From a virus: a stretch of DNA of 64,000 bases. Where the stretch lies: positions 8,014-72,013 of the IMG/VR virus record IMGVR_UViG_3300046804_003540. One strand, 5' to 3'. This document shows positions 1 through 39,359 of the stretch, one piece after another (within the stretch, counting starts at the first letter, position 1; every line of letters begins with the position of its first letter). A model generated the notes under the pieces. That model saw nothing but the letters and a program-made list of their open reading frames with translations, was not told the origin of the DNA and ran no database searches. The position numbers were made by a program, and so were the translations under genes.

Positions 1-720
1 AGCACCTGCAATTTTATTGCCCGATCGTTTAATCATAACGCCGTTGACACTATCCACTACCTGTTGAATTTGCGGAGCAGGATAGATGCCACAGGCCACT
101 TTGATAAAGTGTTGGTCAAAAATATCAACATTTCTTTTATTTCGTACATTAATTGCTAAAAACAAAATACCTGCAATATACAATGCCAATTCGTGAGTGT
201 CATCAAACGAGCCTTGATCTGGTACATCTGCTACCCAAAAAGGCAGCTCAGTGTCACCTTTACGAATTCTGTTTACGCCGGTATGTGTACTGTCTGCATT
301 ATAAACCATGGATCCATACTTGGCAGGCATTTTAAGACCGAGTCCCGTCATTGCAAAATGATCAAACCAATCCCCTTCTAGTTTAATGCAATGATTTGGG
401 CTGGTATCTCTATTAAAACTGGGATGACTGAAAACTTTTTTAACTGACACCATTTCAAAGTGCGGCACAAGATTAAACATAGTTAAAGTCTTGCCAGCTA
501 GAGTTTGACTGTGATACTGATTGATACGGCCTTGCCAAGGTCCGGATACTGCATCTACTGCGGCAGCAAGATCAGTCATTGGAATGAGCCCATACTTATA
601 GTTTCTGCTCATTTCCTTGCAGTCAATAAATGCTTCTTCAATATCAAATGTGTGGGAGAATTTGGACAAGAACTGTCCAAGAGAGTTGTGAGCCGTAGCA
701 CGGCGTTTGCTTTTTGCCAT
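1..720 (-). CDS. ParB-like (DUF6551-type) protein, runs off the window edge
   Basis: Not in the ORF track. Hand translation from ATG at 720 (AAGGA RBS upstream) is open to position 1: MAKSKRRATAHNSLGQ...SHPSFNRD...YNADSTHT...FLAINVRNKRNVDIFDQH. These resemble the ParB-like QR / DGQH / FxxxN motifs. Confidence 0.55.
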   Translation of the reverse strand, partial: MAKSKRRATAHNSLGQFLSKFSHTFDIEEAFIDCKEMSRNYKYGLIPMTDLAAAVDAVSGPWQGRINQYHSQTLAGKTLTMFNLVPHFEMVSVKKVFSHPSFNRDTSPNHCIKLEGDWFDHFAMTGLGLKMPAKYGSMVYNADSTHTGVNRIRKGDTELPFWVADVPDQGSFDDTHELALYIAGILFLAINVRNKRNVDIFDQHFIKVACGIYPAPQIQQVVDSVNGVMIKRSGNKIAGA

Positions 721-839
721 TTGTAATTTCCTTGTTCTCTAACCCTGTGGGTTATTAAAAATTCAGTTTCTAGCAGAATCGCTCTCAAACTGTAAAGGGA
801 ATTATATATGAGATCTATTAATTCGTCAAGTCGATTTGG

Positions 840-1169
840 TTATCGAGACATCTGTTGCATTCGTTGTTGGTCTTCCCAGCTCTGCCCAGGCAAGGGTTGA
901 CTGGCAGGTGCAGTGGGAATGACAACAGGTCTGACTACACTGATAACGGTAGTGCTTGGATTGTCAACTCTGTCACGAATGTGCTGAGGCACTTGATTGA
1001 TATGTGTGTATTGGGGCCCATACTTCTTAGCGGCCCAACATTCAGGCCCGCAGGGGTTATTAACTAACGGCCCTTGATATGGACTGACAATCTGTTGCTG
1101 TTGGTAAATGATGATCTGGGCTTGGGCAGAGCCAGCCAGGACGGCAAAGACAAGTGCTAATTTTTTCAT
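840..1169 (-). CDS. Secreted Gln/Pro-rich hypothetical protein
   Basis: N-terminal signal peptide MKKLALVFAVLAGSAQA. Confidence 0.7.
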   Translation of the reverse strand: MKKLALVFAVLAGSAQAQIIIYQQQQIVSPYQGPLVNNPCGPECWAAKKYGPQYTHINQVPQHIRDRVDNPSTTVISVVRPVVIPTAPASQPLPGQSWEDQQRMQQMSR

Positions 1170-1213
1170 AGTTTATTATACCTTTTTGAAGAATTATTGT
1201 CAATGCGTACTTT

Positions 1214-1795
1214 TTACTTAACTTTGCGCCAGCATTGTTTGATAACTTCTACAGCCCTAGTACACTGTACAATTTCATAATGGTTATTGGAAATTTCAAC
1301 ATAGTCAACATCCGACCTTGCCATCATGCTTCGTTTTGTAACTACGCCGTCGTTGGGCTGTTCCATCCAAGGCACTTCACCTGTAGTGGTCACAATCTGT
1401 GTCCAAGGTATCTTAACATCTATGTCTCTAGTTGTACGAATAAACTCACTGCGAGGTGTTATGTCGTTGAACAGTTTATAACTGGGGTTCATGATCTTGC
1501 CCCACACTGCTATGTCACTGCCCGCAAATGGTGTAGCCAAACTGACTACACCACGAATATTATCGAACTGTTCTAACAAGTGCAGAGCATAAATGCCACC
1601 CAAACTATGACAGACAATAAACATGGGTTCTGTTTCGTTGTTTAGAATAATATCTTTCATATTATCTAAATTTTCAAAGGCTGTTTTGTCACGGGGATAT
1701 TCTATGTACAGATAGTTTTTGGCTTCTAAGCTTTTTTGTATAAAAGCAAAGCTGTTGTGTGTGGCAGTAGCACCGTGAATGTAAACTACTTTCAT
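1214..1795 (-). CDS. Alpha/beta hydrolase
   Basis: YIHG oxyanion motif, HSLGG nucleophile elbow, LATPFAGS, NDGVV, terminal His (NHY). Confidence 0.85.
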   Translation of the reverse strand: MKVVYIHGATATHNSFAFIQKSLEAKNYLYIEYPRDKTAFENLDNMKDIILNNETEPMFIVCHSLGGIYALHLLEQFDNIRGVVSLATPFAGSDIAVWGKIMNPSYKLFNDITPRSEFIRTTRDIDVKIPWTQIVTTTGEVPWMEQPNDGVVTKRSMMARSDVDYVEISNNHYEIVQCTRAVEVIKQCWRKVK

Positions 1796-4275
1796 GCTTT
1801 GTAGCTTTGTGCTAGTGCTTCACGGGCCTGGCGTTCGTTTTCTGCGGCAAATTGTTGTAGAGCTTGGCCGTCACTTATTTGTCCGCGATCTAATGCTTGC
1901 CAAATTGGTAAATCAAATGTAAGGTATTTGTTTTGCACTGCTTGAGCAAAACTGCTTTCACCTGGACGACCTTGCCAGTTTGCTGGTTTTCCCCATACTA
2001 CAGAAATATACTTGCCATCGGGTGATGTAATTCTCATACGCTCACCGTAAAATGTATAGGTATTGCCTTCCCATGTAAACGCAGGGTCACCGCTACTGGT
2101 TTTGCCCATGCTCCAGCCATGCTTTTTCAGTAAAGCTGCAACAGCAGCTTGATCTGTGTTTTCTGTCAGTTCTTCATCGTCCCAACCTGCAAACGGATCA
2201 ACAATGACCAATTGTCCGTTGTCTCGTTGCATGATATTGTATACATTGCTCAAATCAAATTGATATTGATCACCAATGCCTGCCCTAAACAAATCATCCA
2301 CAGCATACATCAAGCCATCAATGGCTCTGGCACTCAAGCCCGGTGGAATCTTGGCAAAGTCGGGTTCTCGACCCTGGCCGATTTTCTCCATTGCATATTC
2401 AAGATAATCAAGTACTGCTTCGTCACCGGGGAGATGTTTGAGTTTTTCTTGAGTGTAAGCGTAGTAGGTTTTATCACCCCATTTGAGCAATCTATCACCC
2501 CCCACTCTAGGCCAATGAGGATTTTGCTGATTCTGTCTATAAAAATCTATATATCTACGAATTTGATCTATTCTTGAACCGGATCCTTGACCTACGATCT
2601 TAAGCACATATCTACTGTTGGGTTTGCCTAACACAATTTGGTCGCGGCCTTCACCTACTATTTGCCAACCTGCGTTGGTAAAACGCTGTACAAGTTCTTC
2701 AGGAACTGTGAGTTCGTCTGCGGCATTTATTTCAAAGATTTTTCGTTCCGCCACACCTTCATTCATAGTGTATAAATTATACACAGTGGTATCAGCAAAG
2801 TCATCTATGTCAACATTGTATCCCCAACTGTTGGCATAGCGTTGCACCAAACGGTTGTATAGGTTTGTGCGACTCATTGATTTCTGCCCAGGTTCAACTG
2901 CTTTGTTTGCACTGAATCGAAGACGCTCGGGATGATATTTTTTAATAAACTTTTGTATGGCATTTAATACAGTAGCAAAGATGCGCTGTTGATCACCTTC
3001 GCCAGTGACATCCTGACTGTTGCTGCGCCAAAACTCCACAGTCCATTCTTCGTCACCGTATGCACCGTAGTCCATACTAAACATAATACTGAGGTTAGAA
3101 CCGTCGGGTAATTTAACTAACATGTCATGTGATTCGTCACCGTGTTCCCACTTGCCTTTATATGGTTTATCAAATGCTTCCGCTACACCTTCTTCTAATG
3201 CAGTATAATTGTCGAATTCTTCTGGATCGCTAGATACCTTGTTAAACACAACATCTCTTGAATCGAATTTTATGTCGGGCAGTTTTTTCCAGTTAAATCC
3301 ACCGCCTGTTTCGTATATGCTATATGGTATATCTATAGTATATACACCTTCTTCTACTTTTACTGCCACATATACATGTTGCTCATAACTGCAACTCACT
3401 GTAGTACACTCTATGCCTATATCCCACATAATATCGCATATGGCATCTGCAATAATATGACAAATACCACCACCTGCATAGGTGTCTATATTTGATTCGT
3501 CCCACTCATCGTATATGCGTTGAGCAGCCACTAATATGCGATGAATATTTTGTTTTGCCAAGTTTACACTAGGTAGACTGTTTACTTGATCTTGGCCTTC
3601 CGCCACTGCCTGTGTAAAGTTCTCATCCAGCATTGAGCTGTACCATGGATCAGTAATAACAATAGTGCCATCACTGCGCAGCATGGCATTTTCTGTGTGT
3701 AAATCCCAACCAAATCCCTGCTTGCGGCCTATGTGGTACATTAGCTGCATGGTCAAATACAAGTACTTGAGAGTGGTTCGTTTACCGCCAGCAATCTTTT
3801 TTGCAACTGCTTCACTGTCGCCTTCATAGTATTGCCATATTTTACTCTTGGGATTAGTCAGCTGTTGAGAAGCAGCTGGCCAGTCAAGGCGATTGGCCAC
3901 GCACTCACTCATGGCCCATACTACAGCTTCTTCAAAACTGCCGTCAGGCAACGGCTGTAATTTTTCTACAGCTATTTGATAAAATGTTTCGCCGTTGATG
4001 TCAAACTTAGTATAGTGCTGTCCGCCTATGGGGACAAACTTCATCATGTGTGGATTGTCACTGTATTTTTGTGCGGTTTCATAATAGGCCAAGAATACTT
4101 TTTCTGCAGGTGTTAGGTCGCCACTTTCGGGCATTAAAATTTTAATAACACGGCCTTCATCCTTGCCCCATACTGTACTGTCTACACCTGACCCCAGTTC
4201 AGTGTAGCCGGCCTTACGCATTGTTTTGTTAATTTTGTCCCACTGTTCAGGACCGTGTAGTTCGTGTAATAACAT
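1792..4275 (-). CDS. Multidomain polyvalent protein: two protein-kinase-like domains, a papain/transglutaminase-like module and further modules
   Basis: Kinase 1: LGSGVDSTV, VIKI, DLHTEN, ITDP. Kinase 2: VGEGRDQIV, VLKI, DLSNVYN, IVDP. Cys-His-Asp module: GGICH..HVYV..IDI. Repeated VAE linkers. Confidence 0.75.
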   Translation of the reverse strand: MLLHELHGPEQWDKINKTMRKAGYTELGSGVDSTVWGKDEGRVIKILMPESGDLTPAEKVFLAYYETAQKYSDNPHMMKFVPIGGQHYTKFDINGETFYQIAVEKLQPLPDGSFEEAVVWAMSECVANRLDWPAASQQLTNPKSKIWQYYEGDSEAVAKKIAGGKRTTLKYLYLTMQLMYHIGRKQGFGWDLHTENAMLRSDGTIVITDPWYSSMLDENFTQAVAEGQDQVNSLPSVNLAKQNIHRILVAAQRIYDEWDESNIDTYAGGGICHIIADAICDIMWDIGIECTTVSCSYEQHVYVAVKVEEGVYTIDIPYSIYETGGGFNWKKLPDIKFDSRDVVFNKVSSDPEEFDNYTALEEGVAEAFDKPYKGKWEHGDESHDMLVKLPDGSNLSIMFSMDYGAYGDEEWTVEFWRSNSQDVTGEGDQQRIFATVLNAIQKFIKKYHPERLRFSANKAVEPGQKSMSRTNLYNRLVQRYANSWGYNVDIDDFADTTVYNLYTMNEGVAERKIFEINAADELTVPEELVQRFTNAGWQIVGEGRDQIVLGKPNSRYVLKIVGQGSGSRIDQIRRYIDFYRQNQQNPHWPRVGGDRLLKWGDKTYYAYTQEKLKHLPGDEAVLDYLEYAMEKIGQGREPDFAKIPPGLSARAIDGLMYAVDDLFRAGIGDQYQFDLSNVYNIMQRDNGQLVIVDPFAGWDDEELTENTDQAAVAALLKKHGWSMGKTSSGDPAFTWEGNTYTFYGERMRITSPDGKYISVVWGKPANWQGRPGESSFAQAVQNKYLTFDLPIWQALDRGQISDGQALQQFAAENERQAREALAQSYKA

Positions 4276-4278
4276 CTA

Positions 4279-4914
4279 TTATTCCCAAGCCACCATTTTA
4301 AATCGTTCTTTTGGAATGCCAAAGTAATTGCATTTCCAATCGCTTTGTGCAAAAAAATCTAAATGATGCCATTTATCTTTGTGTTCTAGTATTTGCAGTG
4401 CAGCATCGTCCCAATCAATGGCGGCCAGTTTAGGTTCTATCTGTTGTCTCACTGCTTCTACTTCTTCGTAGCTAAAACCATCCCATTCCCAATGCAATAC
4501 TTCAAAGGCATTGCCTTGACGATCTACATAGTCTATGCTGAAATCTAAGCCCCACTTGGGACGCATGGCTATGATTTTATAAATCAAAGGTAACCTTTGC
4601 GCCCATCTTTGTAGTTGCTCCAGTGCTTGTTCACTGTAGGCCTTGCGTTCAAACAACAGGCTGTGATTGAGCACAGCACCTTCTAGTTTATCTTCCTGTG
4701 TGAACCATGGCTGTTTGATAGCTGCTCTATGTTGACGATGGCGCTGGGGTCTAGCATCGTTTACTTCAGCATATCGCTGTTCTAGTTCAGTAAGGTCGTA
4801 GCCATTTTGATCGAATAATTCCAAGTCGCTGGGCAAAGGTGTAAACAGTGTTTTGTCTATGGGCTTGCTCCAATGACCGTTAAAGTTGAAACGAGTATCA
4901 GCTAGTTTTATCAT
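4279..4914 (-). CDS. Conserved-type phage hypothetical protein
   Basis: Long ORF; ATG at 4914 overlaps the upstream TGA (ATGA). Confidence 0.75.
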   Translation of the reverse strand: MIKLADTRFNFNGHWSKPIDKTLFTPLPSDLELFDQNGYDLTELEQRYAEVNDARPQRHRQHRAAIKQPWFTQEDKLEGAVLNHSLLFERKAYSEQALEQLQRWAQRLPLIYKIIAMRPKWGLDFSIDYVDRQGNAFEVLHWEWDGFSYEEVEAVRQQIEPKLAAIDWDDAALQILEHKDKWHHLDFFAQSDWKCNYFGIPKERFKMVAWE

Positions 4915-5309
4915 TTTACAATAGGACCGCCTGTTATCCAAAGTTCACAACTGCGAGAGCCTGCACATTTAAAATGCAGCAAATTGCAGTAGCCTAGGTC
5001 AGCTGCTTCACGAGTTTTTTCTGCTTCATAAGCTTCCGCACCCATGCCATCGTGAATACATTTATACATAGCATCAGTAATATTAAAAGCCGCACAGTTA
5101 GCACACTGCATGGTTTTAGCAGTCTTTTCATCTATGCCCCATTGCTTGGCAGATTGTTTCCAATAGTTGCCAGGCTTGTCAGGGTTAGCGGGACCGTAGT
5201 GATGTTTGTCTATGGCCACTTGTCTATTCTTTACATTGACTGAGAGATCATGTGTAGCAATAGGACAACCTTTACTGACTGCTTCTACTATTTGTATATA
5301 ATTTTTCAT
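4911..5309 (-). CDS. Cys-rich metal-binding protein
   Basis: CANC...C...GYC...KC...SC pattern; capsid-targeting-like leader MKNYIQIVE. Confidence 0.7.
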   Translation of the reverse strand: MKNYIQIVEAVSKGCPIATHDLSVNVKNRQVAIDKHHYGPANPDKPGNYWKQSAKQWGIDEKTAKTMQCANCAAFNITDAMYKCIHDGMGAEAYEAEKTREAADLGYCNLLHFKCAGSRSCELWITGGPIVK

Positions 5310-5310
5310 A

Positions 5311-7635
5311 TTACCTCATTTCAGGAGCGATTTCAACACCGTCTTGCATGTGTCTTGGGTTTCGTCGTAACCATTGCATGGCCACACGGTTAGCATCACT
5401 TTGTGCATTGCCTATACCACCAAAGCGATGTATTTCATTGCCATCGGGATCTAAAATAAGCCAATTGCCTGTAAAAGTACCACCACGCTGTTGTTGTGCT
5501 GGTTCACGTTGTTGGTCATTGATTGCACGCCATCCGTAGTCTTCGGTGTCGTGCGGCAATCCAAATACATCCATAACCTGTGTATATTTTCTTGCGGCTT
5601 CTTGGTCTGTGTTGGCAATAAACTTGAACACTGGCTGCATAGTTCTTCGCTCAACAATTTCGTAGTTAGCATCCGCTGCTTGGCCGCCCCAACCCAGTCT
5701 ATTCTCTATGTCTGTTTGACCTAAACCATTTGCAAATCCTTCGCCGGGCAGTGGCTGTTGTCCTGCTGTGCGGCGTAGACCCAACTGGCTTCTTTGAAGA
5801 CCAGTGTTAGCTACCATTGACTCTCTGTACCTATTGCCAATTTCCAAGGCCATTTGATCATCAGCAGCCCAAAATTCTCTGTAAGGCGTATCAGTTTGTC
5901 TATTGTACAATTCGTATTGTATACTGCCTGGTTGGCCTGCTGGACGAGGTTCACCTGCTGTAGCCTTAACAGGTTCAGTGCTGTACGGACGCAGAGGTTT
6001 AGCAGTGGCTGCAGGCATGTATTCGGGGCTTTTCAATCCAAATTCTGTTGCGGCTTTTGTTAATGCTTCTTCTCGAGTCTTAGCAACAACTTCCACACCA
6101 GGACCATTGGGCACATCGCCGTCTCTCCAAACTTCCCACCAGTAGTCAACATCACCCTTGGGTCCACGCTGTATATTACGCTCTAACTGTGCTTGTTTGA
6201 TAAAGCTTTTCAATGCAGCCTTGGGCATTTTGCCTGCTACATAGTCAGCAAAGAATTTTACAGTGTCAGCACCTTCTGTTCGAGCTCCCAGCAACTTGTA
6301 TAGCTTCTTTAAGTATTCTTCGCGATACTTTTCTGGATCTGCAGCTGCATCTAGGGCCACTACAAAACGCAGCAGTGTATTTTTAATTTTTGCAGGATCG
6401 TTCTGTAGATCTGCTAACCAATTGCCACCAGGACTGCGAAACTCCACATAACCATCCTTGGTATTGATACTGGTATACTTGCTGGTAACACCCGTGTGAA
6501 TTGCTTTACTGGCTGCAGCATTCAAATGCGCTTTCATTTGCTTTAGCAGAGCTGCAACATCTTCAGGACGCTGTCGTGCCTGTTCGCGAACTTTGTCGAT
6601 GGCAGGTCTGGTATAGGTATTGTTCATACGGTCAAAAGATTTTAACACATACTCATCGCCCAACAACAGTGCTAATTTAACATAGTCTAATTTGTTTAAA
6701 TCACCTGACCAACTGGGTACACTGACATTCATGTGCAGGCCTGTGCTCTTGTTAGTATAACAGCCTCGGCGTTTGGCCCAAGTTCTAATTTTATCCAAGT
6801 CTGAAAACATTTCGTCAATGGGCAAAGGTGGACTAACAAATTCTAGACCTGCTTCGCCTGGATCATCTGCGTCAATGCTGCCGTCGGGCTCTACTACATA
6901 GTGTCCGGCTTCACGACGACCACCGTGATAGTTTTGGCTGGTGTTAACTGGTCTGCCCACTGCTTGACTGAATTCATCTCCTATGGCGTCAACATTGATA
7001 TCACTGTCCTGGCTGGTATAAAATGGCCAGGACAAACCAGTGGCATTTTCAATGTCCGACATCATGGGGTAGTTTCTACGCAGCCAATTTTCTTCATCTG
7101 CATTGCCAAAATAATCATCAGAATGCTGTTGTCTAGCTTCGTCATAGTATGAGTTTTGGTCTTCTATACACTGTTTGGCAAATTCTTCATAGTCTTCTCT
7201 GAAAATATCTTCTTGACTATCAGGTAAGTTTAATGCACTGCGTATTTCATCCGCTGAAGCATTGTCTCTTACATACCCATAGACAATGTCTTCAGCATCA
7301 TTGTCAAAATCTTCATTTGCCGTTTCACCTATATAATCATAAAATTCTTCTTGTAATGGCTGTAATGCTTGTTCAACAGTTCTAGTAGAGTTTACACCAT
7401 CTCCGCCAGTAAAGAAGTCTATAATATCGCTCCAACTGCGTGTTCTTTCGTCTTGGTCGTAGTCAGGTTCTAAGTCGCCTTCGTCGTCCCCGCCCATGGC
7501 GTTGGGCACTACCATTTCAAATTCCATGCCTGCACGAGCATCGATTTTGTTGGCCAGCTTTTCCAAGCTGGAAGGGCTCATGTTAATTTCAAATAATTCG
7601 GATTCTTCTAAGGGTTTAATATCGTTAAATCGCAT
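5311..7635 (-). CDS. Putative amidoligase (COOH-NH2 ligase type 2) with C-terminal repeated small domains
   Basis: Motifs GMEFE, EPDGSI, LEFVSPPL, STGLHMNV, KYTSIN, VEFRSPGG. Confidence 0.8.
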   Translation of the reverse strand: MRFNDIKPLEESELFEINMSPSSLEKLANKIDARAGMEFEMVVPNAMGGDDEGDLEPDYDQDERTRSWSDIIDFFTGGDGVNSTRTVEQALQPLQEEFYDYIGETANEDFDNDAEDIVYGYVRDNASADEIRSALNLPDSQEDIFREDYEEFAKQCIEDQNSYYDEARQQHSDDYFGNADEENWLRRNYPMMSDIENATGLSWPFYTSQDSDINVDAIGDEFSQAVGRPVNTSQNYHGGRREAGHYVVEPDGSIDADDPGEAGLEFVSPPLPIDEMFSDLDKIRTWAKRRGCYTNKSTGLHMNVSVPSWSGDLNKLDYVKLALLLGDEYVLKSFDRMNNTYTRPAIDKVREQARQRPEDVAALLKQMKAHLNAAASKAIHTGVTSKYTSINTKDGYVEFRSPGGNWLADLQNDPAKIKNTLLRFVVALDAAADPEKYREEYLKKLYKLLGARTEGADTVKFFADYVAGKMPKAALKSFIKQAQLERNIQRGPKGDVDYWWEVWRDGDVPNGPGVEVVAKTREEALTKAATEFGLKSPEYMPAATAKPLRPYSTEPVKATAGEPRPAGQPGSIQYELYNRQTDTPYREFWAADDQMALEIGNRYRESMVANTGLQRSQLGLRRTAGQQPLPGEGFANGLGQTDIENRLGWGGQAADANYEIVERRTMQPVFKFIANTDQEAARKYTQVMDVFGLPHDTEDYGWRAINDQQREPAQQQRGGTFTGNWLILDPDGNEIHRFGGIGNAQSDANRVAMQWLRRNPRHMQDGVEIAPEMR

Positions 7636-16200: not shown

Positions 16201-16616
16201 TGTGTTTTCTCCGATAATTGTTTGTAACCTGCAGTGCTGGGATGTATGTTGTCCTTTTGTACTCTTGTAATAGGAACAACTATATCACCGTGCTCTGCAG
16301 CTATTTGTTTTACTATTGTTTGAATATGTTCTATTGGCACTTCACTGGCCTTCAAATTACCATGTGGTAAAATCCAATATACTTGTCTTGCTTGAACTCG
16401 TTGTCTTAATTTAGTTAGTTCTTCCAGTGTTTTAATATGTTTGTGATCATTGCTGCCTAAACTGATAATAACTGAATCAGCAGTTAAATCTTGTGACTTG
16501 TACTGTTTATTGTATTGCCAAGTGTTAATGCCGCCTTTGCTTAAACTGGCACATTCCTGTTTGTGTGCAGCAAGGCCCACGGCGATGCTGTCCCCTATAA
16601 TCAAACACTCAAGCAT
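16197..16616 (-). CDS. SGNH/GDSL hydrolase
   Basis: IGDSIA, SLGSND, DNIHP. Confidence 0.85.
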   Translation of the reverse strand: MLECLIIGDSIAVGLAAHKQECASLSKGGINTWQYNKQYKSQDLTADSVIISLGSNDHKHIKTLEELTKLRQRVQARQVYWILPHGNLKASEVPIEHIQTIVKQIAAEHGDIVVPITRVQKDNIHPSTAGYKQLSEKTQ

Positions 16617-17271
16617 TATGACCTCTTGAACTTAGGACAATTTTGCAGATATGCTCTAGTCGTTCGATGTGTTCAAACGCACGCCAAGGACTGGTATCAA
16701 TTGCAACAACACCGTGACCTTTGATGCCCACGATGTCAAAGGCAATATTGCCTTGTTTATCTAAACCAAGATTTTCGTGACAACGATCTGCCAGTTCTTG
16801 ACTGATAGGAGGCACATCCGGAACATTGGGTGCTACACGAGTATAGCGACTAAGTTCAGGAAAGTCTGAGACCACAGTGCTGAGATCAATACCTGCATGC
16901 ATGGCTGCAACACAGTAAGTTGGATGTAGATGTACAACTACACGCACATCGTCTTTGTGCTGTCCCATTTCACGCTGTAGGCCAAAGTGCAGGGGCAGTT
17001 CACCGCTGGGTCTTAGTCCTTGACTAATATCCGAATAAGGCAAAACTTCCCAATCATAGGTATATTGCAGATCTGCAAATCCTGTGCCTGCGTTCTTTTT
17101 TATAGCAATTTTCTTGAACTGATCTGGTTGCAGTGTCTGCTTACGAACACCACTGGGCGTGATGTAAAAGTGATCACGGTCGTGGTGTCGTATGCTGACA
17201 TTACCATCTCTGCTGGTAATCCAGTTACGCTTGTAAGCCTCTACCAGTGTTTCGCAGATTGTTTCAAGCAT
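16609..17271 (-). CDS. Class II aldolase/adducin family protein
   Basis: DGNVS, ITPSG, PSGELPLH, VHLHP, GHGV. Confidence 0.9.
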   Translation of the reverse strand: MLETICETLVEAYKRNWITSRDGNVSIRHHDRDHFYITPSGVRKQTLQPDQFKKIAIKKNAGTGFADLQYTYDWEVLPYSDISQGLRPSGELPLHFGLQREMGQHKDDVRVVVHLHPTYCVAAMHAGIDLSTVVSDFPELSRYTRVAPNVPDVPPISQELADRCHENLGLDKQGNIAFDIVGIKGHGVVAIDTSPWRAFEHIERLEHICKIVLSSRGHNA

Positions 17272-17599
17272 TATGATTCCTTACATATTCTGCTAGCCAT
17301 TCAAGATCAAGTTTAAGTTCTTGACCTATCCATCTTGCACCTTCTGTATGATCACGCAGATCGTCGCCTGTGTCTTCGTGTAGTAGTACATTTAGTCCTT
17401 CGCCCTCAAGCCAGTTCTCTACGATGTTTTTTATATCATCACAGTAATTAACTTGGTACATAGGTAAAGGATGGGGGCCAATTGGCGTATCCCACACTCT
17501 ACCTAGGCCAGCACCTGCGTTAGACAAAGGTTCTCTTAAACTTAAAGCTATGGCTCGTTGCTCAGGAGTTGACCAGTAAACGTGTGCGTGATAGTACAT
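17264..17599 (-). CDS. DOPA 4,5-dioxygenase family protein
   Basis: YHAHVY, PIGPHP.PM, LLH..TGD.L.DH..A.W.G; start overlaps the ahpC stop (TAATG). Confidence 0.85.
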   Translation of the reverse strand: MYYHAHVYWSTPEQRAIALSLREPLSNAGAGLGRVWDTPIGPHPLPMYQVNYCDDIKNIVENWLEGEGLNVLLHEDTGDDLRDHTEGARWIGQELKLDLEWLAEYVRNHNA

Positions 17600-18132
17600 T
17601 ACAGAGTCTCGCCGCCTACTGTACGGTTGCAAGCACAGAGTTCACCGGTTTGCAGGGCGTCAAGTACACGCAGAGTTTCTTCAGGACTACGGCCAACATT
17701 CAAGTTGTTGACAGTGACATGTTGAATTTCGTTGTTGGGATCAACAATAAAAGTAGCACGAAGTGCAGCACCTGCTGGAGCATAGAACACGCCCAACTGA
17801 TTGATTAGGCTGAGTTCGCCACGCTGTGTATCAGCAAATTGAATGTGCTTGATTTTTTTCAAGTCTTCGTGTGCAGCTTGCCATGCTAATTTACAAAACT
17901 CATTGTCTGTGCTGCCAGTCAATAGAACTGCGTCACGGTCTGCAAAGTCTTGATATAGTTTGTCGTATGCTACAATTTCAGTTGGACATACAAAGGTAAA
18001 GTCCTTGGGATAGTATACGATTACTTTCCACTTACCTTCAAAACTAGTTTCAGTAATGGTAAAGAAATCATCCTTACCTGGGTTGACGCCGGTTACGGCA
18101 AATGCTTCAATTTTATCGCCTACGGTTTTCAT
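17599..18132 (-). CDS. ahpC: Peroxiredoxin AhpC
   Basis: YPKDFTFVCPTE, RATFIVDP, VGRS, GELCAC. Confidence 0.95.
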   Translation of the reverse strand: MKTVGDKIEAFAVTGVNPGKDDFFTITETSFEGKWKVIVYYPKDFTFVCPTEIVAYDKLYQDFADRDAVLLTGSTDNEFCKLAWQAAHEDLKKIKHIQFADTQRGELSLINQLGVFYAPAGAALRATFIVDPNNEIQHVTVNNLNVGRSPEETLRVLDALQTGELCACNRTVGGETL

Positions 18133-18268
18133 TTTCGATTTTCTCCTTATTAAAAATGTAATTCAGTGTTTATACTGATGTTGTGTAGTATACAAGTATT
18201 TACTATGAAGATCAAGCCTTTAATAGAATATTTCAATGGTATTTTCTAATGCCTGCAATAGTAAAAAT

Positions 18269-18850
18269 TTATGAGTATATAAAAGGTGTATCGATATCGC
18301 TGTAGTCAACATCAATTGTTGTGCCCGTTACATCATCGTATTCTTGGTAGTATGTTTCGTTGGGCATCAAAATTCTAAATTGATTAGCATACTTCAAACC
18401 CAAAAATGTCATGTCTGCTTGGTCTAAGATATCACAGATAACGAATGTACTGGAACATCGGCCTACGATTTTTTTAAATGGACTGTGTCGCGCTTCGTTC
18501 TTTTGTAATGCCTTATTGATATCTTCATGAGGCTTAAACATAATACGAGTAATGCCTAACTTTTGATTACGCAGTCTAAACTTATCGTAGATGGTTAATT
18601 CAGTTAAGGTAGCTTCATTTTCTTCATTGACAGTGACCAGCACATCTTTGAATTTTAGTGAGCCTTTGGTGTGACTGTTATCGGGAGTTTCTTTGGTAGA
18701 CCAGGGAAGTTTAGCGTCTACATGATTGACATAATAAGTTTCGCCATGAAATTTTAAGACCCACATGGGAATGGTCTCGTCTTCTAAGTGTTTCTTGTTA
18801 AAGTGGAAGACTACATCTTTAGCTGCAAATTCAATCTATTTTTGTGTCAT
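18269..18850 (-). CDS. Phage protein interrupted by an in-frame TAG at codon 5 (readthrough candidate or pseudogene)
   Basis: AAGGAG RBS then ATG ACA CAA AAA TAG ATT GAA TTT…, in frame with the 165-aa ORF 18269-18766; TAG at 18836-18838. Confidence 0.7.
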
Positions 18851-18877
18851 GTTGGTTCTCCTTGTTAATGACAGTAA

Positions 18878-18885
18878 TATTTATA
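18878..18885 (-). promoter_or_regulatory. T4-like late promoter motif TATAAATA
   Basis: Exact motif upstream of the RBS. TAAATA recurs upstream of many genes, for example near 7655, 21395, 32825, 36693, 55637, 56050, 56578, 58955 and 62110. Confidence 0.6.
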
Positions 18886-18887
18886 GT

Positions 18888-18961
18888 TGGTGCGCTGGAC
18901 AGGAATCGAACCTGCTATCGGGAGTTTAGAAGTCCCTGCCTATCCATTGAGCTTCCAACGC
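18888..18961 (-). tRNA. tRNA, best fold with a CUA anticodon (amber suppressor); alternative reading tRNA-Arg(UCU)
   Basis: 74 nt: GCGTTGG AA GCTC AATGGAT AGGC A GGGAC TTCTAAA CTCCC GATA GCAGG TTCGATT CCTGT CCAGCGC A CCA. Acceptor and T stems pair fully (one G-U each) and CCA is encoded. tRNA status is secure; the anticodon assignment is less so. Confidence 0.85.
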
Positions 18962-18969
18962 ATGGCAGC

Positions 18970-18998
18970 ATTGTAGTGCAGTTTTTGAATGTTGTCAA
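18970..18998 (-). promoter_or_regulatory. Sigma70 promoter for the tRNA
   Basis: TTGACA-N17-TACAAT, ending 8 nt before the tRNA 5' end. Confidence 0.8.
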
Positions 18999-19061
18999 GA
19001 TTTTATTTTGGAATTATCTAACCAATAAATATTCATACTCAAGGCACACAAAGGTTATTCA

Positions 19062-20732
19062 ATGAACAAATACGATGAACTAGAATTATTAATCAAGAAA
19101 TTTACAAGAGCACTACCCGACACCGAACAATATCAACTACGCTTAGAACAAGAATTAGAATTAATAGCGAAACTAGGATTTGCCAAGCACTTTCTTCGTG
19201 TTAGAGAAATCCTGGATCTTACCAAAGATATACCACACATTACCCGTGGGTCAGCAGGTTCAAGTTTAATCTGTTGGCTCATGGGCATTTCGGATGTAGA
19301 CCCCATACAAGAACGAATCCCCCTAGCAAGATTTATGAATCCCAAACGAGATGACTTGCCAGACATTGACTTGGACTTTCCGCACTATCAACAGGAAACT
19401 GTCATGAACAGAATCTACAAGCGATGGCCTGGGCAAAGTGCTAGGGTCAGTAACTTTGTTACTTACAAAGAAAAGTCAGCTGTGCGCGAAGCGGCCAAAA
19501 GATATGGTGCCAAAGGTCGCTTAAAGCGAAACTTTAAACTAGCAGATGTCGTGCCTGAGTATGCCGAAGAAGCAGAACGACTGGCTAAAAAATTAGTGGG
19601 CAAAAAACGCTGTATTAGCAAACACTGTGGTGGCATCCTAATCTTTGATAGGCCTGTGCCTAAAAGTCTTATTAACGCTGAAAATCAAATCTTGTTGGAC
19701 AAGTATGAAATTGAAGACTTAGAACATTTTAAGATTGATATTTTAGCTAATCGAGGACTCAGCCAACTGTGGGAAATAGCAGAGCGTGATCTACTAGACT
19801 ATCCCGAAGAAGATGCGGCCACTGCTGAACTATTGGCTCGTGGAGATGTTTTGGGAGTCACACAAGCAGAGTCACCTGCTATGCGTAGACTGTTTAGAGC
19901 AATCAAACCTCGCAGTCGTGCAGACTGTGTGTTGGCCACGGCATTAATTCGCCCCGTGGCCACACAGGGTCGTAGGCGTGCGTCATTTTTTCAAGACTGG
20001 AGTCAAGACAGCTTTGACAATACCATTGTGTTTGAAGACGATGCCATAGAACTAATTGCTAATATCTTGGGCTGTGACCACTATGAAGCAGACATGTGGC
20101 GTCGTGCGTTTGCTAAAAAGAACGAAGAAAAGATGTTTGAGTTCATGCAGTTGGTGGGTGACCATCCTCGTCGAGATGAAGTCACAGCAGCACTAAAAGA
20201 ACTCAGTCATTTTGGTCTTTGTCGTGCTCACGCCATCAACTTGGGTAGATTGATTTGGGCACTGGCTTACCAAAAAGCACACAATGCCAAACAGTTTTGG
20301 ACAGCAGCACTGAAACACTGCCAAGGCAGTTACAGTCGCTGGGTCTATTGGCAAGAAGCCAAATTGGCCGGTGCTGTGCCCAGTGTGTTAGAAGGCAATG
20401 AAGTAGATGACCTACAACATACTGGACAATGGCGCAGTCGCAAGTTCATACCTGCTTGTAGAGAAATACGCAGACCTGGTGAAGTTGAATTCTGCGGCCT
20501 AATTGCCAATTATCGTGTGTTTAAATCTGGTACCAAAGACTATATTACTTTTGCCACAGTAGGCACAGGTAATGGTAGATATTTGGATGTTATATTGAAA
20601 CATGCCATAAGTTTTCATGACTACCCTGTACTCTGGGGTTCGGGTAAACTGGGCTATAAAAATAACACAGAATATGTTACAGTTGTTAAACACAAGCGAT
20701 TGAAACTACAGGACATAAGGCACATAGAATGA
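19062..20732 (+). CDS. dnaE: Compact family C DNA polymerase (DnaE-like) lacking the PHP domain
   Basis: RGSAGSSL, RFMNP.R..LPDIDLDF, SKHCGG, KIDIL, Q.ES, ALIRP, RAHA; OB-fold-like C-terminus. Confidence 0.85.
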   Translation: MNKYDELELLIKKFTRALPDTEQYQLRLEQELELIAKLGFAKHFLRVREILDLTKDIPHITRGSAGSSLICWLMGISDVDPIQERIPLARFMNPKRDDLPDIDLDFPHYQQETVMNRIYKRWPGQSARVSNFVTYKEKSAVREAAKRYGAKGRLKRNFKLADVVPEYAEEAERLAKKLVGKKRCISKHCGGILIFDRPVPKSLINAENQILLDKYEIEDLEHFKIDILANRGLSQLWEIAERDLLDYPEEDAATAELLARGDVLGVTQAESPAMRRLFRAIKPRSRADCVLATALIRPVATQGRRRASFFQDWSQDSFDNTIVFEDDAIELIANILGCDHYEADMWRRAFAKKNEEKMFEFMQLVGDHPRRDEVTAALKELSHFGLCRAHAINLGRLIWALAYQKAHNAKQFWTAALKHCQGSYSRWVYWQEAKLAGAVPSVLEGNEVDDLQHTGQWRSRKFIPACREIRRPGEVEFCGLIANYRVFKSGTKDYITFATVGTGNGRYLDVILKHAISFHDYPVLWGSGKLGYKNNTEYVTVVKHKRLKLQDIRHIE

Positions 20733-36707: not shown

Positions 36708-37055
36708 TTAGGTAATTTTTAGTTTTGCCGCATCCTGTCTGTCCGAATACAAACAGGTACCTCGGTCACGCACAAGGTCAGCACTGCCTTGTGGATCACG
36801 CTCAAACATTTCTTTGATGTCATCTTTATCAATACCATCTTCAACTTCTATGGCATAGATTTCATAGTGTCGTTGCTGATTAAATTTTGCACGAAGTTTG
36901 AGATAGTGCAGTAGGGTCGCACCACCGTGTCTAGGTGCAGTTCCATCGTAGGTGCCTTGAAGGATTTCAAATGTAATTTGACGATCCGCTTCTGTGGCAT
37001 TGAATACACATTCTACACCAAGTTGATCCCAACTAATAATAAAAGTATTTGACAC
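36708..37055 (-). CDS. Hypothetical protein
   Basis: SWDQLGVE…LRAKFNQQRHYEIY. Confidence 0.75.
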   Translation of the reverse strand: MSNTFIISWDQLGVECVFNATEADRQITFEILQGTYDGTAPRHGGATLLHYLKLRAKFNQQRHYEIYAIEVEDGIDKDDIKEMFERDPQGSADLVRDRGTCLYSDRQDAAKLKIT

Positions 37056-37119
37056 AGCAGTTTCTAAAAATTATCTGTTAGTGTAGCATAAAATAGCAGA
37101 GCGATCAATGCGATTGGCG

Positions 37120-37290
37120 TTATTTTTTATCCTCAAACCATGCGTTTACCATAACATAGCATAGACTGTATATTTCTTTGGTCATTTTGAAAAAACCAAA
37201 AAGTATAAAATAGATGCCCATTGGCACCAACCAAAGAGGACTGGTAATAAGCAGTACAAAGGCTAAGAATTTTTTTACTGATTCGTTCAT
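37120..37290 (-). CDS. Small membrane protein
   Basis: Hand-translated MNESVKKFLAFVLLITSPLWLVP…; ATGA overlap. Confidence 0.55.
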   Translation of the reverse strand: MNESVKKFLAFVLLITSPLWLVPMGIYFILFGFFKMTKEIYSLCYVMVNAWFEDKK

Positions 37291-37484
37291 TTTATCAACT
37301 TATTAAAAATATCTAATTTGTCAATACAGTTAAGGCACAGGGCATTGTAGCGTGGTCCCCCGTGGCCAGACACAGCACCGCCACAACTGGTACAAAGAAT
37401 AAAGGCTTGAGTCACAATAGCACCTTTTGGCGTTTCGTAAATTGGCTCAAGTGTATAGCCAATTATTTTCCGTTCTTCGGTCAT
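37287..37484 (-). CDS. Small zinc-finger protein
   Basis: CTSC…CLNC. Confidence 0.7.
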   Translation of the reverse strand: MTEERKIIGYTLEPIYETPKGAIVTQAFILCTSCGGAVSGHGGPRYNALCLNCIDKLDIFNKLIK

Positions 37485-37720
37485 TGTTCAATCCCAAAAT
37501 GTTCTTCTATGTATGCGGCGGCTTTCAATTGACCTTCATACAACGCATCATTCATACCACGATTGTAGCACTGATCCAAACACTCACGCACAATTAACTC
37601 GGCGAACTTAGCCAATTCATCTTCCCAACACTCAGCAAAGGCTCGCATTGGTGTTTCCGTTGGATCGTAAGTAAATTCAATTTTAGCCTGGCGAGCAAGT
37701 TCTAAAAGGCGTTCGTTCAT
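37481..37720 (-). CDS. MNER…KFAELIVREC…HFG family small protein
   Basis: Three conserved blocks. Confidence 0.8.
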   Translation of the reverse strand: MNERLLELARQAKIEFTYDPTETPMRAFAECWEDELAKFAELIVRECLDQCYNRGMNDALYEGQLKAAAYIEEHFGIEQ

Positions 37721-37986
37721 TCTTCAACTCCGAAATGTTCTTTAATCTCGTCAACGGCATCTTCTTTCAAACGGTATGCGGCAAACAATGCTCCACTTGC
37801 GTTATGTGCTTGTCCTTGGGGCGGGTTCTTGGCAAACTCGTGCCAGCTTTCGCCCATTTCCTCTAACTTGGAGCAACATTCCCTGACAATCAACTCGGCG
37901 AACTTTTCAATATTGCCTTCACCATAACCCATACCATCAATTGAACAATTAGCCTGTTTAGCAAGTTCTAGAATTCGTTCGTTCAT
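37717..37986 (-). CDS. MNER…KFAELIVREC…HFG family small protein
   Basis: Three conserved blocks. Confidence 0.8.
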   Translation of the reverse strand: MNERILELAKQANCSIDGMGYGEGNIEKFAELIVRECCSKLEEMGESWHEFAKNPPQGQAHNASGALFAAYRLKEDAVDEIKEHFGVEE

Positions 37987-38222
37987 TGTTCAACTCCTCT
38001 AAATGTTATTGGACTGGTACCCATCCAAGTTGTGTGGGGTTGATCCACTATTTCTGTCATGTCTCCATAGGTATCAGTATAAAACAATCTATGATTAGGA
38101 TAGTTTCGCTTGCACCACTCTAAGACCGCTTCGGCGTCATTTGTAATGCTAACCGGACCGTCCAAGTCTTGTAAATATACACTTTGATCTACAATGCGAG
38201 AAACTTCAAACCTACACTTCAT
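37983..38222 (-). CDS. Hypothetical protein within the repeat array
   Basis: SITNDAE motif; ends FRGVEQ. Confidence 0.75.
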   Translation of the reverse strand: MKCRFEVSRIVDQSVYLQDLDGPVSITNDAEAVLEWCKRNYPNHRLFYTDTYGDMTEIVDQPHTTWMGTSPITFRGVEQ

Positions 38223-38428
38223 TCTTCAACTCCGAATCGTTGTTTGATCAATTCATCTGCACCGACAGTCTTACCCAACCGATTAGTTGCACAGGCTGAA
38301 ATACATTCCTCAATAATCAACTCGGCGAACTTTTCCAAAAATGCATCCAGTTTTTTATAGTTAAGGTCAAATTCGTTACCGGTTTGATCGTTAGCCTCTA
38401 CTGCAAGGTCTAAAAGTCGTTCGTTCAT
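38219..38428 (-). CDS. MNER…KFAELI…FGVEE family small protein
   Basis: Three conserved blocks. Confidence 0.8.
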   Translation of the reverse strand: MNERLLDLAVEANDQTGNEFDLNYKKLDAFLEKFAELIIEECISACATNRLGKTVGADELIKQRFGVEE

Positions 38429-38431
38429 TCT

Positions 38432-38554
38432 TCAACTCCAAAATGTTTGTTTAAGAAAACTAAAAATAACCATAAAGATCGTGAAGTAAGCAGCCGCTCC
38501 TACCATCAATAGATATGCCACAGCCCACCAGCCTGCCTTCTCGCCTTCCGTCAT
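38432..38554 (-). CDS. Small single-TM protein (MTEGEKAGWW…QTFWS)
   Basis: Hand-translated 40 aa; reads the junction repeat in a different frame. Confidence 0.6.
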   Translation of the reverse strand: MTEGEKAGWWAVAYLLMVGAAAYFTIFMVIFSFLKQTFWS

Positions 38555-38751
38555 TCTTCAACTCCAAAATGTTGTTTTAGATAGTGTGCCGCAGTGGTTC
38601 CTTGTAGCATCGATGAACCCCATTCCACTTCAAACAGGTCAGCACATTCCCGAACAATCATTTCGGCGAATTTTTCATTATCAAAATGAAGTTGTCCTTG
38701 AGGGCGTTCATCCCAGCATTGTTTAGCAAGTTCTGCAATTCGTTTGTTCAT
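38551..38751 (-). CDS. MNKR…KFAEMIVREC…HFGVEE family small protein
   Basis: Three conserved blocks. Confidence 0.8.
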   Translation of the reverse strand: MNKRIAELAKQCWDERPQGQLHFDNEKFAEMIVRECADLFEVEWGSSMLQGTTAAHYLKQHFGVEE

Positions 38752-38780
38752 TCTTCAACTCCGAAATGTTATTTAAAATT

Positions 38781-39220: not shown

Positions 39221-39225
39221 TTCAT

Positions 39226-39348: not shown

Positions 39349-39359
39349 CGTTCAACTCC

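What the first reader, a model, noticed from the sequence alone, without database searches (positions are those of the whole stretch)
18269..18998. Amber-suppressor-like tRNA directly upstream of a gene broken by an in-frame TAG
Seen: a near-consensus sigma70 promoter (TTGACA-N17-TACAAT) drives a 74-nt CCA-ending tRNA. Its anticodon arm pairs best as GGGA/TCCC around a loop centred on CTA (U33, C34-U35-A36, A37-A38; C31:C39 mismatch). The Arg(UCU) register gives two mismatches plus a G-U. Only 37 nt downstream on the same strand, a gene with an AAGGAG RBS begins ATG ACA CAA AAA TAG ATT GAA and stays open for about 190 more codons. The internal ATG at 18766 has no comparable RBS. Established: some phages recode TAG and carry Sup-CUA tRNAs. 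Inference: this is a local suppressor tRNA plus amber-gated gene module rather than genome-wide recoding. It could act as a translational switch or be an early stage of codon reassignment. The tRNA has A20 (an Arg identity element), A73 and an atypical A8, so the inserted amino acid is uncertain.
Basis: partly seen in the sequence, partly recalled or inferred. Interest (0 to 1): 0.88.

Follow-up and report, generated by a model that had tools for sequence, protein, structure and literature searches.

The report
Suppressor tRNA gating one phage gene
A large freshwater phage carries a stop-codon-reading tRNA right next to the one gene that has that stop codon (TAG) near its start, and the same pairing is kept in dozens of related phages, so the tRNA probably acts as the key that lets this gene be translated.

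Summary
A CCA-ending tRNA with anticodon CUA lies at 18888-18961 (-) behind a TTGACA-N17-TACAAT promoter. 37 nt downstream, a gene with an AAGGAG ribosome-binding site carries TAG as codon 5.

The window is part of a 72-kb fragment of a jumbo phage that uses the standard code. None of 98 long ORFs ends in TAG, and no other long ORF needs TAG read-through.

- **The TAG is conserved.** All 55 related viral loci that reach the gene start, plus the cultured Rhizobium phage RHph_I1_18, have an in-frame TAG. It is never TAA or TGA, always follows a short unconserved leader, and is always followed by A.
- **The tRNA is linked.** 51 of these 56 loci carry a CUA tRNA on the same strand. Three of the other five stop within 180 nt upstream.
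- **The segment after TAG is coding.** Variation sits at third codon positions, and the segment forms the first β-strand of the predicted fold.

Best reading (0.7): the linked suppressor tRNA decodes the TAG, and selection keeps the TAG as a gate that couples this protein's synthesis to suppressor activity. Suppression, the inserted residue and the protein's function are untested. The protein matches no family. Published jumbo-phage papers report CUA suppressors without known targets. I class this as a new variant of phage stop-codon recoding.

The parts
18993..18998 (-). -35 hexamer TTGACA of the tRNA promoter
   Evidence: Read. Scan: 11 of 12 matches, 17-nt spacer.
18970..18975 (-). -10 hexamer TACAAT, ending 8 nt before the tRNA 5' end
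   Evidence: In the listing, 19 of 38 distinct upstream sequences of related CUA tRNAs have a -10-like hexamer (at least 5 of 6) ending 7-9 nt before the tRNA.
18888..18961 (-). 74-nt tRNA with encoded CCA and anticodon CUA. The body is tRNA-Arg-like.
   Evidence: ARAGORN. Rfam 38.9 bits. Family model R1 74.3 bits. Nearest phage tRNAs are all annotated tRNA-Arg.
18927..18929 (-). Anticodon C34-U35-A36 in the loop UUCUAAA
   Evidence: U33, C34, U35, A36 and A37 are invariant in 37 distinct family members.
18858..18863 (-). Shine-Dalgarno AAGGAG, 7 nt before the ATG, inside the 37-nt tRNA-gene spacer
   Evidence: Read. No terminator-like site in 18100-19150.
18848..18850 (-). ATG start of the gated gene. 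The leader M-T-Q-K is not conserved.
   Evidence: Leaders differ in length and sequence among relatives.
18836..18838 (-). In-frame TAG (codon 5), followed by A
   Evidence: TAG in 55 of 55 viral loci and in RHph_I1_18. Zero entropy at all three positions. Confirmed in contigs of runs X4 and X10.
18557..18835 (-). Residues 6-98: conserved N-terminal β-rich domain, including the segment before the internal Met at 18766
   Evidence: Codon periodicity and excess of synonymous changes. AlphaFold pLDDT 85.9, first strand at residues 2-13 of this piece. The domain also occurs alone in RHph_I1_18 and fused in Atu_ph07 and Phosso.
18269..18556 (-). Residues 99-193 plus the TAA stop: C-terminal βαββαβ domain
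   Evidence: AlphaFold model. Weak ACT/RRM-like matches, Z up to 5.6.

Best explanation
The promoter at 18998-18970 makes a transcript that begins about at the 5' end of a tRNA with anticodon CUA. I infer it runs on into the gene 37 nt downstream. Ribosomes start at the ATG behind AAGGAG and meet UAG after four codons. If release factor 1 wins, only a tetrapeptide is made. If the phage's charged CUA tRNA wins, any residue can go into an unconserved tail and the 193-residue protein is completed. Selection keeps the codon as TAG, so the amount of this protein follows the activity of the suppressor tRNA relative to RF1. That makes it a translational gate, or a sensor of the cell's UAG-decoding state.

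- **Shown here:** the anatomy, the conservation of TAG and of the tRNA linkage, the coding nature of the segment after TAG, and the lack of genome-wide recoding.
- **Inferred:** actual suppression, co-transcription, and the purpose of the gate.
- **Unknown:** the inserted amino acid (Arg, Lys or Gln are candidates) and what the protein does. Weak fold hints point to an OB-like plus ACT/RRM-like, possibly nucleic-acid-binding, protein.
For: 1. **TAG is invariant.** 55 of 55 related viral loci that contain the gene start have TAG at this place, never TAA or TGA. So does cultured phage RHph_I1_18. All three TAG positions have zero entropy in 37 distinct sequences, while neighbouring third positions average 0.79 bits.
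2. **The TAG sits in an unconserved tail.** It directly follows a leader that varies in length and sequence. It is codon 3 in 33, codon 5 in 11 and codon 4 in 7 of 56 loci, with a range of 2-10. A neutral sense codon there should have drifted.
3. **The tRNA is linked.** A CUA tRNA lies on the same strand in 51 of 56 loci. It is upstream in 50, with a gap to the ATG of 21-2885 nt, and at most 300 nt in 36. In RHph_I1_18 it lies directly after the gene. Three of the five loci without one have under 180 nt of upstream sequence.
4. **The segment after TAG is translated in the TAG frame.** Entropy by codon position is 0.27, 0.20 and 0.79. Synonymous versus non-synonymous codon differences are 4677 to 2478, against 806 to 6098 and 493 to 6246 in the other frames. 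The segment forms the first β-strand of a confident model.
5. **The tRNA family looks functional.** Fourteen of 18 predicted pairs show compensatory changes. The loop Y32-U33-CUA-A37 is invariant in 37 distinct sequences, with A38 in 35.
6. **The context favours suppression.** The base after TAG is A in all 56 loci. A purine at +4, especially A, raises amber suppression about tenfold for SupE (passages of PMC6266110). True TAG stops in G001 and G004 are followed by T 20, C 16, A 9 and G 5 times.
7. **This genome avoids TAG stops.** The 98 long ORFs end in TAA 66 times, TGA 32 times and TAG never. The TAG trinucleotide is not rare: 2105 occurrences against 2566 for TGA.
8. **Gene callers agree with the pattern.** On short contigs they give full-length homologues with Q at this position in 41 of 41 rows with an N-terminus. 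On long contigs they give 165- or 180-residue truncations. I read the Q as code-15 calling of TAG.
Against: - There is no direct evidence of suppression, of charging of the tRNA, or of the full-length protein.
- Two fragments (L012, L017) have 3 kb of upstream sequence and no CUA tRNA. None was found elsewhere in those 11-kb records.
- Relatives that carry the module still use TAG as a stop: G001 14 of 369, G004 36 of 357, RHph_I1_18 18 of 221. So the suppressor cannot be very efficient at all times, and the TAG-free state of this genome is not a family rule.
- The codon after TAG is always an Ile codon (ATT, ATC or ATA) in the 55 viral loci, even in three loci with an insertion there. That would also suit restart at a near-cognate codon.
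- The window's own tRNA can be drawn as a poor tRNA-Arg(UCU), and its nearest relatives are tRNA-Arg.
- The loci are related by descent, so the counts are not independent events.
Confidence: 0.7

Rival explanations
1. Plain incipient code-15 recoding. The suppressor tRNA makes TAG a sense codon, and this gene simply holds the first TAG that became fixed. The TAG has no regulatory meaning.
For: The model in the Borges et al. preprint (passages) runs from depletion of a stop codon, to gain of a suppressor tRNA, to in-frame stops. This genome has 0 TAG stops among 98 ORFs and a CUA tRNA.
Against: - A neutral TAG in an unconserved tail should have been replaced by sense codons in some lineages. 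It is TAG in 56 of 56 loci, across relatives down to 48% protein identity.
- No further TAG-containing gene has accumulated. None appears among the long ORFs of the 72-kb record. The two candidates in the 364-kb genome G001 proved to be separate genes or true stops.
- G004 and RHph_I1_18 keep TAG stops at 8-10%.
Confidence: 0.12
2. Termination-reinitiation. The short ATG...TAG leader is a mini-ORF. After release at UAG the ribosome restarts on the adjacent AUU, AUC or AUA codon. The tRNA is not needed for this gene.
For: The codon after TAG is ATT, ATC or ATA in 55 of 55 viral loci. This includes three loci (L019, L055, L057) where extra residues follow it. Mini-ORFs of 2-5 codons are the commonest form.
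Against: - Any stop codon would serve for this mechanism, yet only TAG occurs, in genomes that otherwise prefer TAA and TGA.
- RHph_I1_18 has AAC after the TAG.
- ATC and ATA are weak starts (recalled).
- The Ile is the first residue of the conserved β-strand, so its codon is explained by the protein.
- This reading does not explain the linkage to a CUA tRNA in 51 of 56 loci.
Confidence: 0.08
3. The tRNA is an ordinary, slightly aberrant tRNA-Arg(UCU). The gene is a decaying gene, or is expressed from the internal Met at 18766.
For: - All annotated features under the 45 phage-record matches to this tRNA are tRNA-Arg, at 76-84% identity. Three of them were checked and have anticodon TCT.
- The window's loop contains CUUCUAA and A20 is present.
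Against: - In the UCU register, 22 of 37 distinct family members would have C at position 33. The window's stem would have two mismatches and no nucleotide 26.
- G001 and G004 carry canonical tRNA-Arg(UCU) genes besides the CUA tRNA.
- The segment upstream of the internal Met is under purifying selection. It is a structural strand.
- No comparable ribosome-binding site precedes the internal ATG.
Confidence: 0.03

Closest known systems
TAG-recoded (code 15) phages with Sup-CUA tRNAs, such as crAss-like and Lak phages (Borges et al. preprint 10.1101/2021.08.26.457843, passages read; PMC9523058, search listing only)
   Same: A phage-encoded tRNA with anticodon CUA in a host presumed to use the standard code. 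In-frame TAG is used in a phage gene. Recoding is proposed as a way to time translation.
   Different: In those phages, many genes carry many in-frame TAGs, mostly late and lysis genes. Here a single gene has one TAG, at codon 2-10 in an unconserved leader and physically linked to the tRNA. The rest of the genome is standard code.
Suppressor tRNAs of standard-code jumbo phages XacN1, RsoM2USA and Atu_ph07 (PMC5852040, PMC8504454 and PMC6102473; passages read)
   Same: Jumbo phages with tRNA arrays that include a CUA (or UCA) suppressor and no genome-wide recoding.
   Different: Those papers found no target. [quoted passage not shown] Here a conserved target sits beside the tRNA. A tblastn search at E up to 1e-5 found the protein's N-domain in only 4 phage records of 3 phages, and XacN1 and RsoM2USA were not among them.
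prfB (RF2) autoregulation through an early in-frame UGA (recalled, not from a call)
   Same: It works alike in principle. An in-frame stop early in the gene makes the yield depend on the competition between a release factor and an alternative decoding event.
   Different: In prfB the alternative event is a +1 frameshift and the product is the release factor itself. Here the alternative is a dedicated suppressor tRNA, and the product has no release-factor domain or any other Pfam match.
Engineered amber-gated genes with suppressor-tRNA logic (PMC11669171, search listing and abstract start only)
   Same: Expression of a gene requires both its transcription and a suppressor tRNA.
   Different: That system is synthetic. 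This one is natural and conserved.

Membership tests
tRNA (Rfam RF00005) | Cloverleaf that scores above the family's gathering score | tested here: met
   38.9 bits against 29, full length 1-71. ARAGORN also calls it.
Amber suppressor tRNA (anticodon CUA) | CUA at positions 34-36 of a 7-nt loop with U33 | tested here: met
   U33-CUA-A37 is invariant in 37 distinct relatives. The alternative UCU register is worse.
Amber suppressor tRNA (anticodon CUA) | Is aminoacylated and reads UAG on the ribosome | not testable with these tools
   Only indirect support: conserved TAG target, A at +4, and TAG-free stop usage in this record.
tRNA-Pyl (ARAGORN's label) | Atypical pyrrolysine tRNA architecture, lacking G18G19 and the T-loop consensus, with a 3-nt variable loop (definition recalled) | tested here: not met
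   The D-loop has GG, the T-arm reads GGTTCGATTCC, and the variable loop has 4 nt. ARAGORN gives this label to any cta anticodon.
tRNA-Pyl (ARAGORN's label) | Presence of pylS and pylBCD genes | not tested
   No search for these genes was made. Pfam on 25 window proteins showed none.
Genome-wide TAG reassignment (genetic code 15) | Many genes interrupted by in-frame TAG and restored under TAG=Q | tested here: not met
   Only 18269-18850 gains a real N-terminal extension. ORF coverage is 88% under table 11, with 98 ORFs.
Genome-wide TAG reassignment (genetic code 15) | TAG not used as a stop codon | tested here: met
   0 of 98 in this record. Not met in the relatives G004 (36 of 357) and RHph_I1_18 (18 of 221).
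Structure-stimulated readthrough or insertion elements (SECIS- or PYLIS-like) | Conserved RNA structure just downstream of the stop codon | tested here: not met
   RNAalifold on 23 loci, from -22 to +78 around the TAG: -2.06 kcal/mol, 4 pairs, 0 compensatory.
Release-factor autoregulation (prfB type) | The gated product is a release factor | tested here: not met
   No Pfam, PHROG, NCBIfam or PADLOC family matches the protein.
OB-fold nucleic-acid-binding proteins (N-domain) | Five-stranded β-barrel that superposes on solved OB folds | tested here: inconclusive
   The best VIA-align Z is 4.0 (rmsd 4.8, 70 aligned). Several RPA, Stn1 and Ten1 chains score Z 2.8-3.9, below the tool's noise level. 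Foldseek found nothing at E up to 0.001.

The most novel reading that the evidence does not exclude
The tRNA(CUA)-TAG-gene pair is a dedicated feedback device. The phage uses it to measure and set the host cell's UAG-decoding state, meaning suppressor tRNA against RF1. The gated protein would be the effector, acting on the tRNA, on termination or on the ribosome. On this reading, suppressor tRNAs in standard-code phages are regulated weapons or timers, not relics of code change. It would be a natural counterpart of prfB autoregulation, built from a tRNA.
Probability: 0.25. Interest if true: 0.92.

Novelty: new variant of a known kind. Interest (0 to 1): 0.82.

Why it matters
- **It supplies a missing target.** Suppressor tRNAs have been reported in standard-code jumbo phages, but their targets were not identified (XacN1, RsoM2USA and Atu_ph07 papers). 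This finding gives a conserved, physically linked target.
- **It is a natural amber gate.** One gene needs a dedicated tRNA to be translated. The arrangement is kept across a widespread freshwater phage group and is present in a cultured rhizobiophage, so experiments are possible.
- **It bears on how genetic codes change.** A genome can hold a suppressor tRNA, lose TAG stops, and still use TAG at exactly one selected site. That is a stable state between the standard code and code 15.
- **It has a practical consequence.** Standard gene callers truncate or miss this gene. It is unannotated in RHph_I1_18 and called as 165 or 180 residues on long contigs.

Tried and rejected
- **Protein function.** Nothing identified it.
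  - Pfam and PHROGs on the X-masked protein gave 0 families.
  - NCBIfam and PADLOC on the post-TAG part gave 0.
  - Pfam on 37 N-domains gave only chance-level rows.
  - A profile search against PDB sequences had a best E of 0.26.
  - Foldseek against PDB gave nothing at E up to 0.001 for the whole model or the N-domain.
  - BFVD gave one uncharacterised homologue and weak DUF2061 rows.
  - VIA-align gave only common-fold matches: C-domain ACT/RRM-like with Z up to 5.6, N-domain OB-like with Z up to 4.0.
- **Gene neighbourhood.** Apart from the tRNA, no neighbour is conserved. The commonest family, a zinc-ribbon protein of about 275 residues, occurs in 23 of 57 loci at varying positions.
- **tRNA isotype.** BLAST against E. 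coli genomes found no match. Comparison with the phages' own tRNAs put tRNA-Arg(UCU) first in G001, by a small margin only, and nothing clearly first in G004. tRNAscan-SE isotype models were not available.
- **Further TAG-containing genes.** Two candidates in G001 were checked. For one, only the part after the TAG has a homologue in G004, so I read it as two genes. For the other, homology stops before the TAG, so I read that TAG as a true stop.
- **Side branches.** Phosso has a CUA tRNA followed by 1.3 kb without an obvious ORF. In Atu_ph07, the best match to the tRNA model is its UCA suppressor, with no in-frame TGA in the next gene's first codons. Neither repeats the module.
- **Reads.**
  - One 151-nt contig of an RNA library (X16) matches 18645-18790 exactly. 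This does not show transcription, because DNA may be present in that library.
  - Parts of the stretch without cover in X7, X10 and X16 mean nothing.
  - Runs with small shares (X16-X20) were not used for habitat.
- **Complex prediction was not used.** I claim no protein-protein binding.
Full report
**What is there.**
- The window is bases 8014-72013 of a 72,013-base IMG/VR virus record rated 21% complete, so it is a fragment of a jumbo phage.
- Genes are dense and almost all lie on the - strand.
- They include ribonucleotide reductase, a DnaB-like helicase, a pol III alpha-like polymerase, UvdE, and metabolic genes such as isocitrate lyase and a peroxiredoxin.
- On the - strand at 18998-18970 lies TTGACA-N17-TACAAT.
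- Eight bases later a 74-nt tRNA with encoded CCA begins (18961-18888).
- ARAGORN gives anticodon cta. Rfam's tRNA model aligns it in the same register at 38.9 bits.
- After a 37-nt spacer containing AAGGAG, a gene starts with ATG ACA CAA AAA TAG ATT GAA. It stays open for 188 more codons.

**The TAG is real and conserved.**
- Contigs from two laid metagenome runs of different studies cover the TAG and the tRNA without a difference. A relative in a third run reads ATG GCC before the same TAG.
- A search of viral contigs with the protein gave 56 related loci at 48-92% identity.
- In all 55 loci that contain the gene start, an in-frame stop stands directly before the first conserved residues, and in all 55 it is TAG.
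- The leader before the TAG has a good Shine-Dalgarno site but varies in sequence and length. TAG is codon 3 in 33, codon 5 in 11 and codon 4 in 7 of 56 loci, with a range of 2-10.
- The same design appears in the cultured Rhizobium phage RHph_I1_18. An unannotated 82-codon ORF there has TAG as codon 6, and it is directly followed by a tRNA annotated tRNA-Pyl(cta).
- In the large protein database the family has 1406 members at E up to 0.001.
  - Calls from short contigs are 189-198 residues, with Q at the TAG position in 41 of 41 aligned N-termini.
  - Calls from long contigs are truncated to 165 or 180 residues.
  - I read the invariant Q beside variable neighbours as code-15 gene calling of TAG. 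The DNA could not be fetched to confirm this.

**The segment after the TAG is translated.**
- Between the TAG and the conserved internal Met, column entropy is 0.27, 0.20 and 0.79 bits at codon positions 1, 2 and 3.
- Synonymous codon differences outnumber non-synonymous ones 4677 to 2478. In the two other frames the figures are 806 to 6098 and 493 to 6246.
- In AlphaFold models (pLDDT 83.0 for the whole protein, 85.9 for residues 6-98) this segment is the first long β-strand of the N-terminal domain.
- A protein starting at the internal Met would lack that strand. No comparable ribosome-binding site precedes that Met.

**The tRNA travels with the gene.**
- ARAGORN found CUA tRNAs in most loci.
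- A covariance model built from 31 of them also found copies that ARAGORN had missed, some with unusual T-loops. One lies 83 nt upstream of the gene in the 93%-complete genome G004.
- Altogether 51 of 56 loci carry a CUA tRNA on the gene's strand. It is upstream in 50, with a gap of 21-2885 nt, at most 300 nt in 36.
- Three of the five loci without one end within 180 nt of the gene. Two 11-kb fragments (L012, L017) have none.
- The 37 distinct full-length tRNAs keep U33-C34-U35-A36-A37, with A38 in 35. They also keep G1:C72 and C2:G71, and A73 in 36.
- Fourteen of 18 predicted pairs show compensatory changes.
- The 31:39 pair is oddly C·A, A·C or C·C in 26 of 37.
- About half have their own promoter. 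In 19 of 38 distinct upstream sequences a -10-like hexamer ends 7-9 nt before the tRNA.

**Which amino acid?**
- The window's tRNA is closest to phage tRNA-Arg genes. All annotated features under the 45 matching records are tRNA-Arg. Three were checked and have anticodon TCT.
- Aligned with them, the loop reads (C/U)UCUAAA where they read CUUCUAA. The family looks like a tRNA-Arg(UCU) whose loop slipped by one base.
- It is not the phages' working tRNA-Arg(UCU). G001 and G004 have canonical copies as well. In the UCU register, 22 of 37 members would have C33.
- A20 is present in the window's tRNA but in only 13 of 37 members. From recall, Arg-derived amber suppressors in E. coli insert Lys or Arg, and many CUA tRNAs take Gln. 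The residue is therefore open.
- It may not matter, because the TAG lies in the unconserved tail.

**Not genome-wide recoding.**
- Under TAG=Q, only this gene among the long ORFs gains a meaningful extension.
- Of 98 non-overlapping ORFs of at least 80 codons in the record, 66 end in TAA, 32 in TGA and none in TAG. The TAG trinucleotide itself is common.
- Given the TAG shares seen in relatives, the chance of 0 in 98 is 0.02 to 0.00003.
- This avoidance is not a family rule: G001 has 14 TAG stops of 369, G004 36 of 357, and RHph_I1_18 18 of 221.
- Their true TAG stops are mostly followed by T or C (36 of 50, against 9 followed by A). The gated TAG is followed by A in all 56 loci.
- A at +4 is the context reported to favour amber suppression (PMC6266110, passages).
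- No conserved RNA structure follows the TAG.

**Mechanism.**
- *Best reading.* The linked tRNA reads the UAG. The codon is kept as TAG because that couples the protein's synthesis to suppressor activity relative to RF1. An early position costs only a di- to nonapeptide when termination wins.
- *What for.* This is inference. Possibilities are a timer, a sensor, or feedback on suppression.
- *The protein.* It has no family. Weak fold hints suggest an OB-like N-domain (Z up to 4.0) and an ACT/RRM-like C-domain (Z up to 5.6). These would suit nucleic-acid binding but prove nothing.
- *The conserved core.* The N-domain stands alone in RHph_I1_18. In Atu_ph07 and Phosso it is fused, without a TAG, behind a helical region.
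- *Rivals.* Three were considered: neutral incipient recoding, restart at the Ile codon after a mini-ORF, and a misread tRNA-Arg. All three are weakened by the exclusive use of TAG, the tRNA linkage and the family-wide loop sequence.

**Comparison with what is known.**
- Code-15 phages carry CUA suppressors but recode many late genes (Borges et al. preprint, passages).
- Papers on the standard-code jumbo phages XacN1, RsoM2USA and Atu_ph07 report suppressor tRNAs. XacN1 states that no target was found. The other two only suppose that their many stop codons hold targets (passages).
- Six full-text searches found no description of a single conserved amber codon linked to a suppressor tRNA (and the jumbo-phage survey read). 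The library is not complete, and supplements were closed.
- I therefore rate this as a new variant of phage stop-codon recoding, of high interest. A cultured phage is available for the decisive tests.

Noticed in passing
L096:4615-4690 and L096:9728-9801 (G004); MN988519 10833-10908 and 15286-15359: Both G004 and Rhizobium phage RHph_I1_18 carry two odd tRNA-like genes. ARAGORN labels one tRNA-???(gc), with a 6-nt anticodon loop, and the other tRNA-???(tatg), with an 8-nt loop. In RHph_I1_18 the (gc) one lies directly beside the CUA tRNA.
   Followed up: partly
37 distinct CUA tRNAs (alignment A3); window 18888-18961: Position 31:39 of the anticodon stem is C·A (16), A·C (9) or C·C (1). It is a standard pair in only 9 of 37. 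Position 8 is A in 14 of 37. I have no explanation for either.
   Followed up: partly
L053:4394-4467, L055:4038-4111, L057:3943-4016: A well-formed tRNA-Thr with anticodon AGU (A34) lies about 1 kb downstream of the gated gene in the most divergent relatives.
   Followed up: partly
Upstream of the CUA tRNAs in related loci; window 18962-18998: In 19 of 38 distinct upstream sequences a -10-like hexamer ends 7-9 nt before the tRNA 5' end, usually with CAT just before G1. This suggests nearly leaderless tRNA transcripts.
   Followed up: partly
window 46710-47918, 17599-18132, 17264-17632, 16609-17271: The phage fragment encodes isocitrate lyase, a peroxiredoxin (AhpC/TSA), a DOPA 4,5-dioxygenase-family protein and a class II aldolase. 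These are probable auxiliary metabolic genes.
   Followed up: no
window 37055-39360: A 2.3-kb stretch has no ORF of 100 codons or more on the - strand, under table 11 or TAG=Q, in an otherwise dense genome.
   Followed up: no
L098:1501-2872 (PV764938 446731-448102); L099:1501-1575 (MF403008 430713-430787): Sinorhizobium phage Phosso has a CUA tRNA followed by 1.3 kb without an annotated or obvious ORF. In Atu_ph07, the best match to the CUA-tRNA model is its UCA (opal) suppressor.
   Followed up: partly
G004 209-235 kb, 283-296 kb, 314-329 kb: The 36 TAG-terminated ORFs of G004 are clustered, 17 of them between 209 and 235 kb. TAG stops may be confined to particular gene blocks.
   Followed up: no
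L059:2195-2725, L060:2207-2728: In Phosso and Atu_ph07 the N-domain homologue is the C-terminal part of a 173-176-residue protein. In Phosso it lies two genes downstream of a small ORF annotated as peptidyl-tRNA hydrolase.
   Followed up: no
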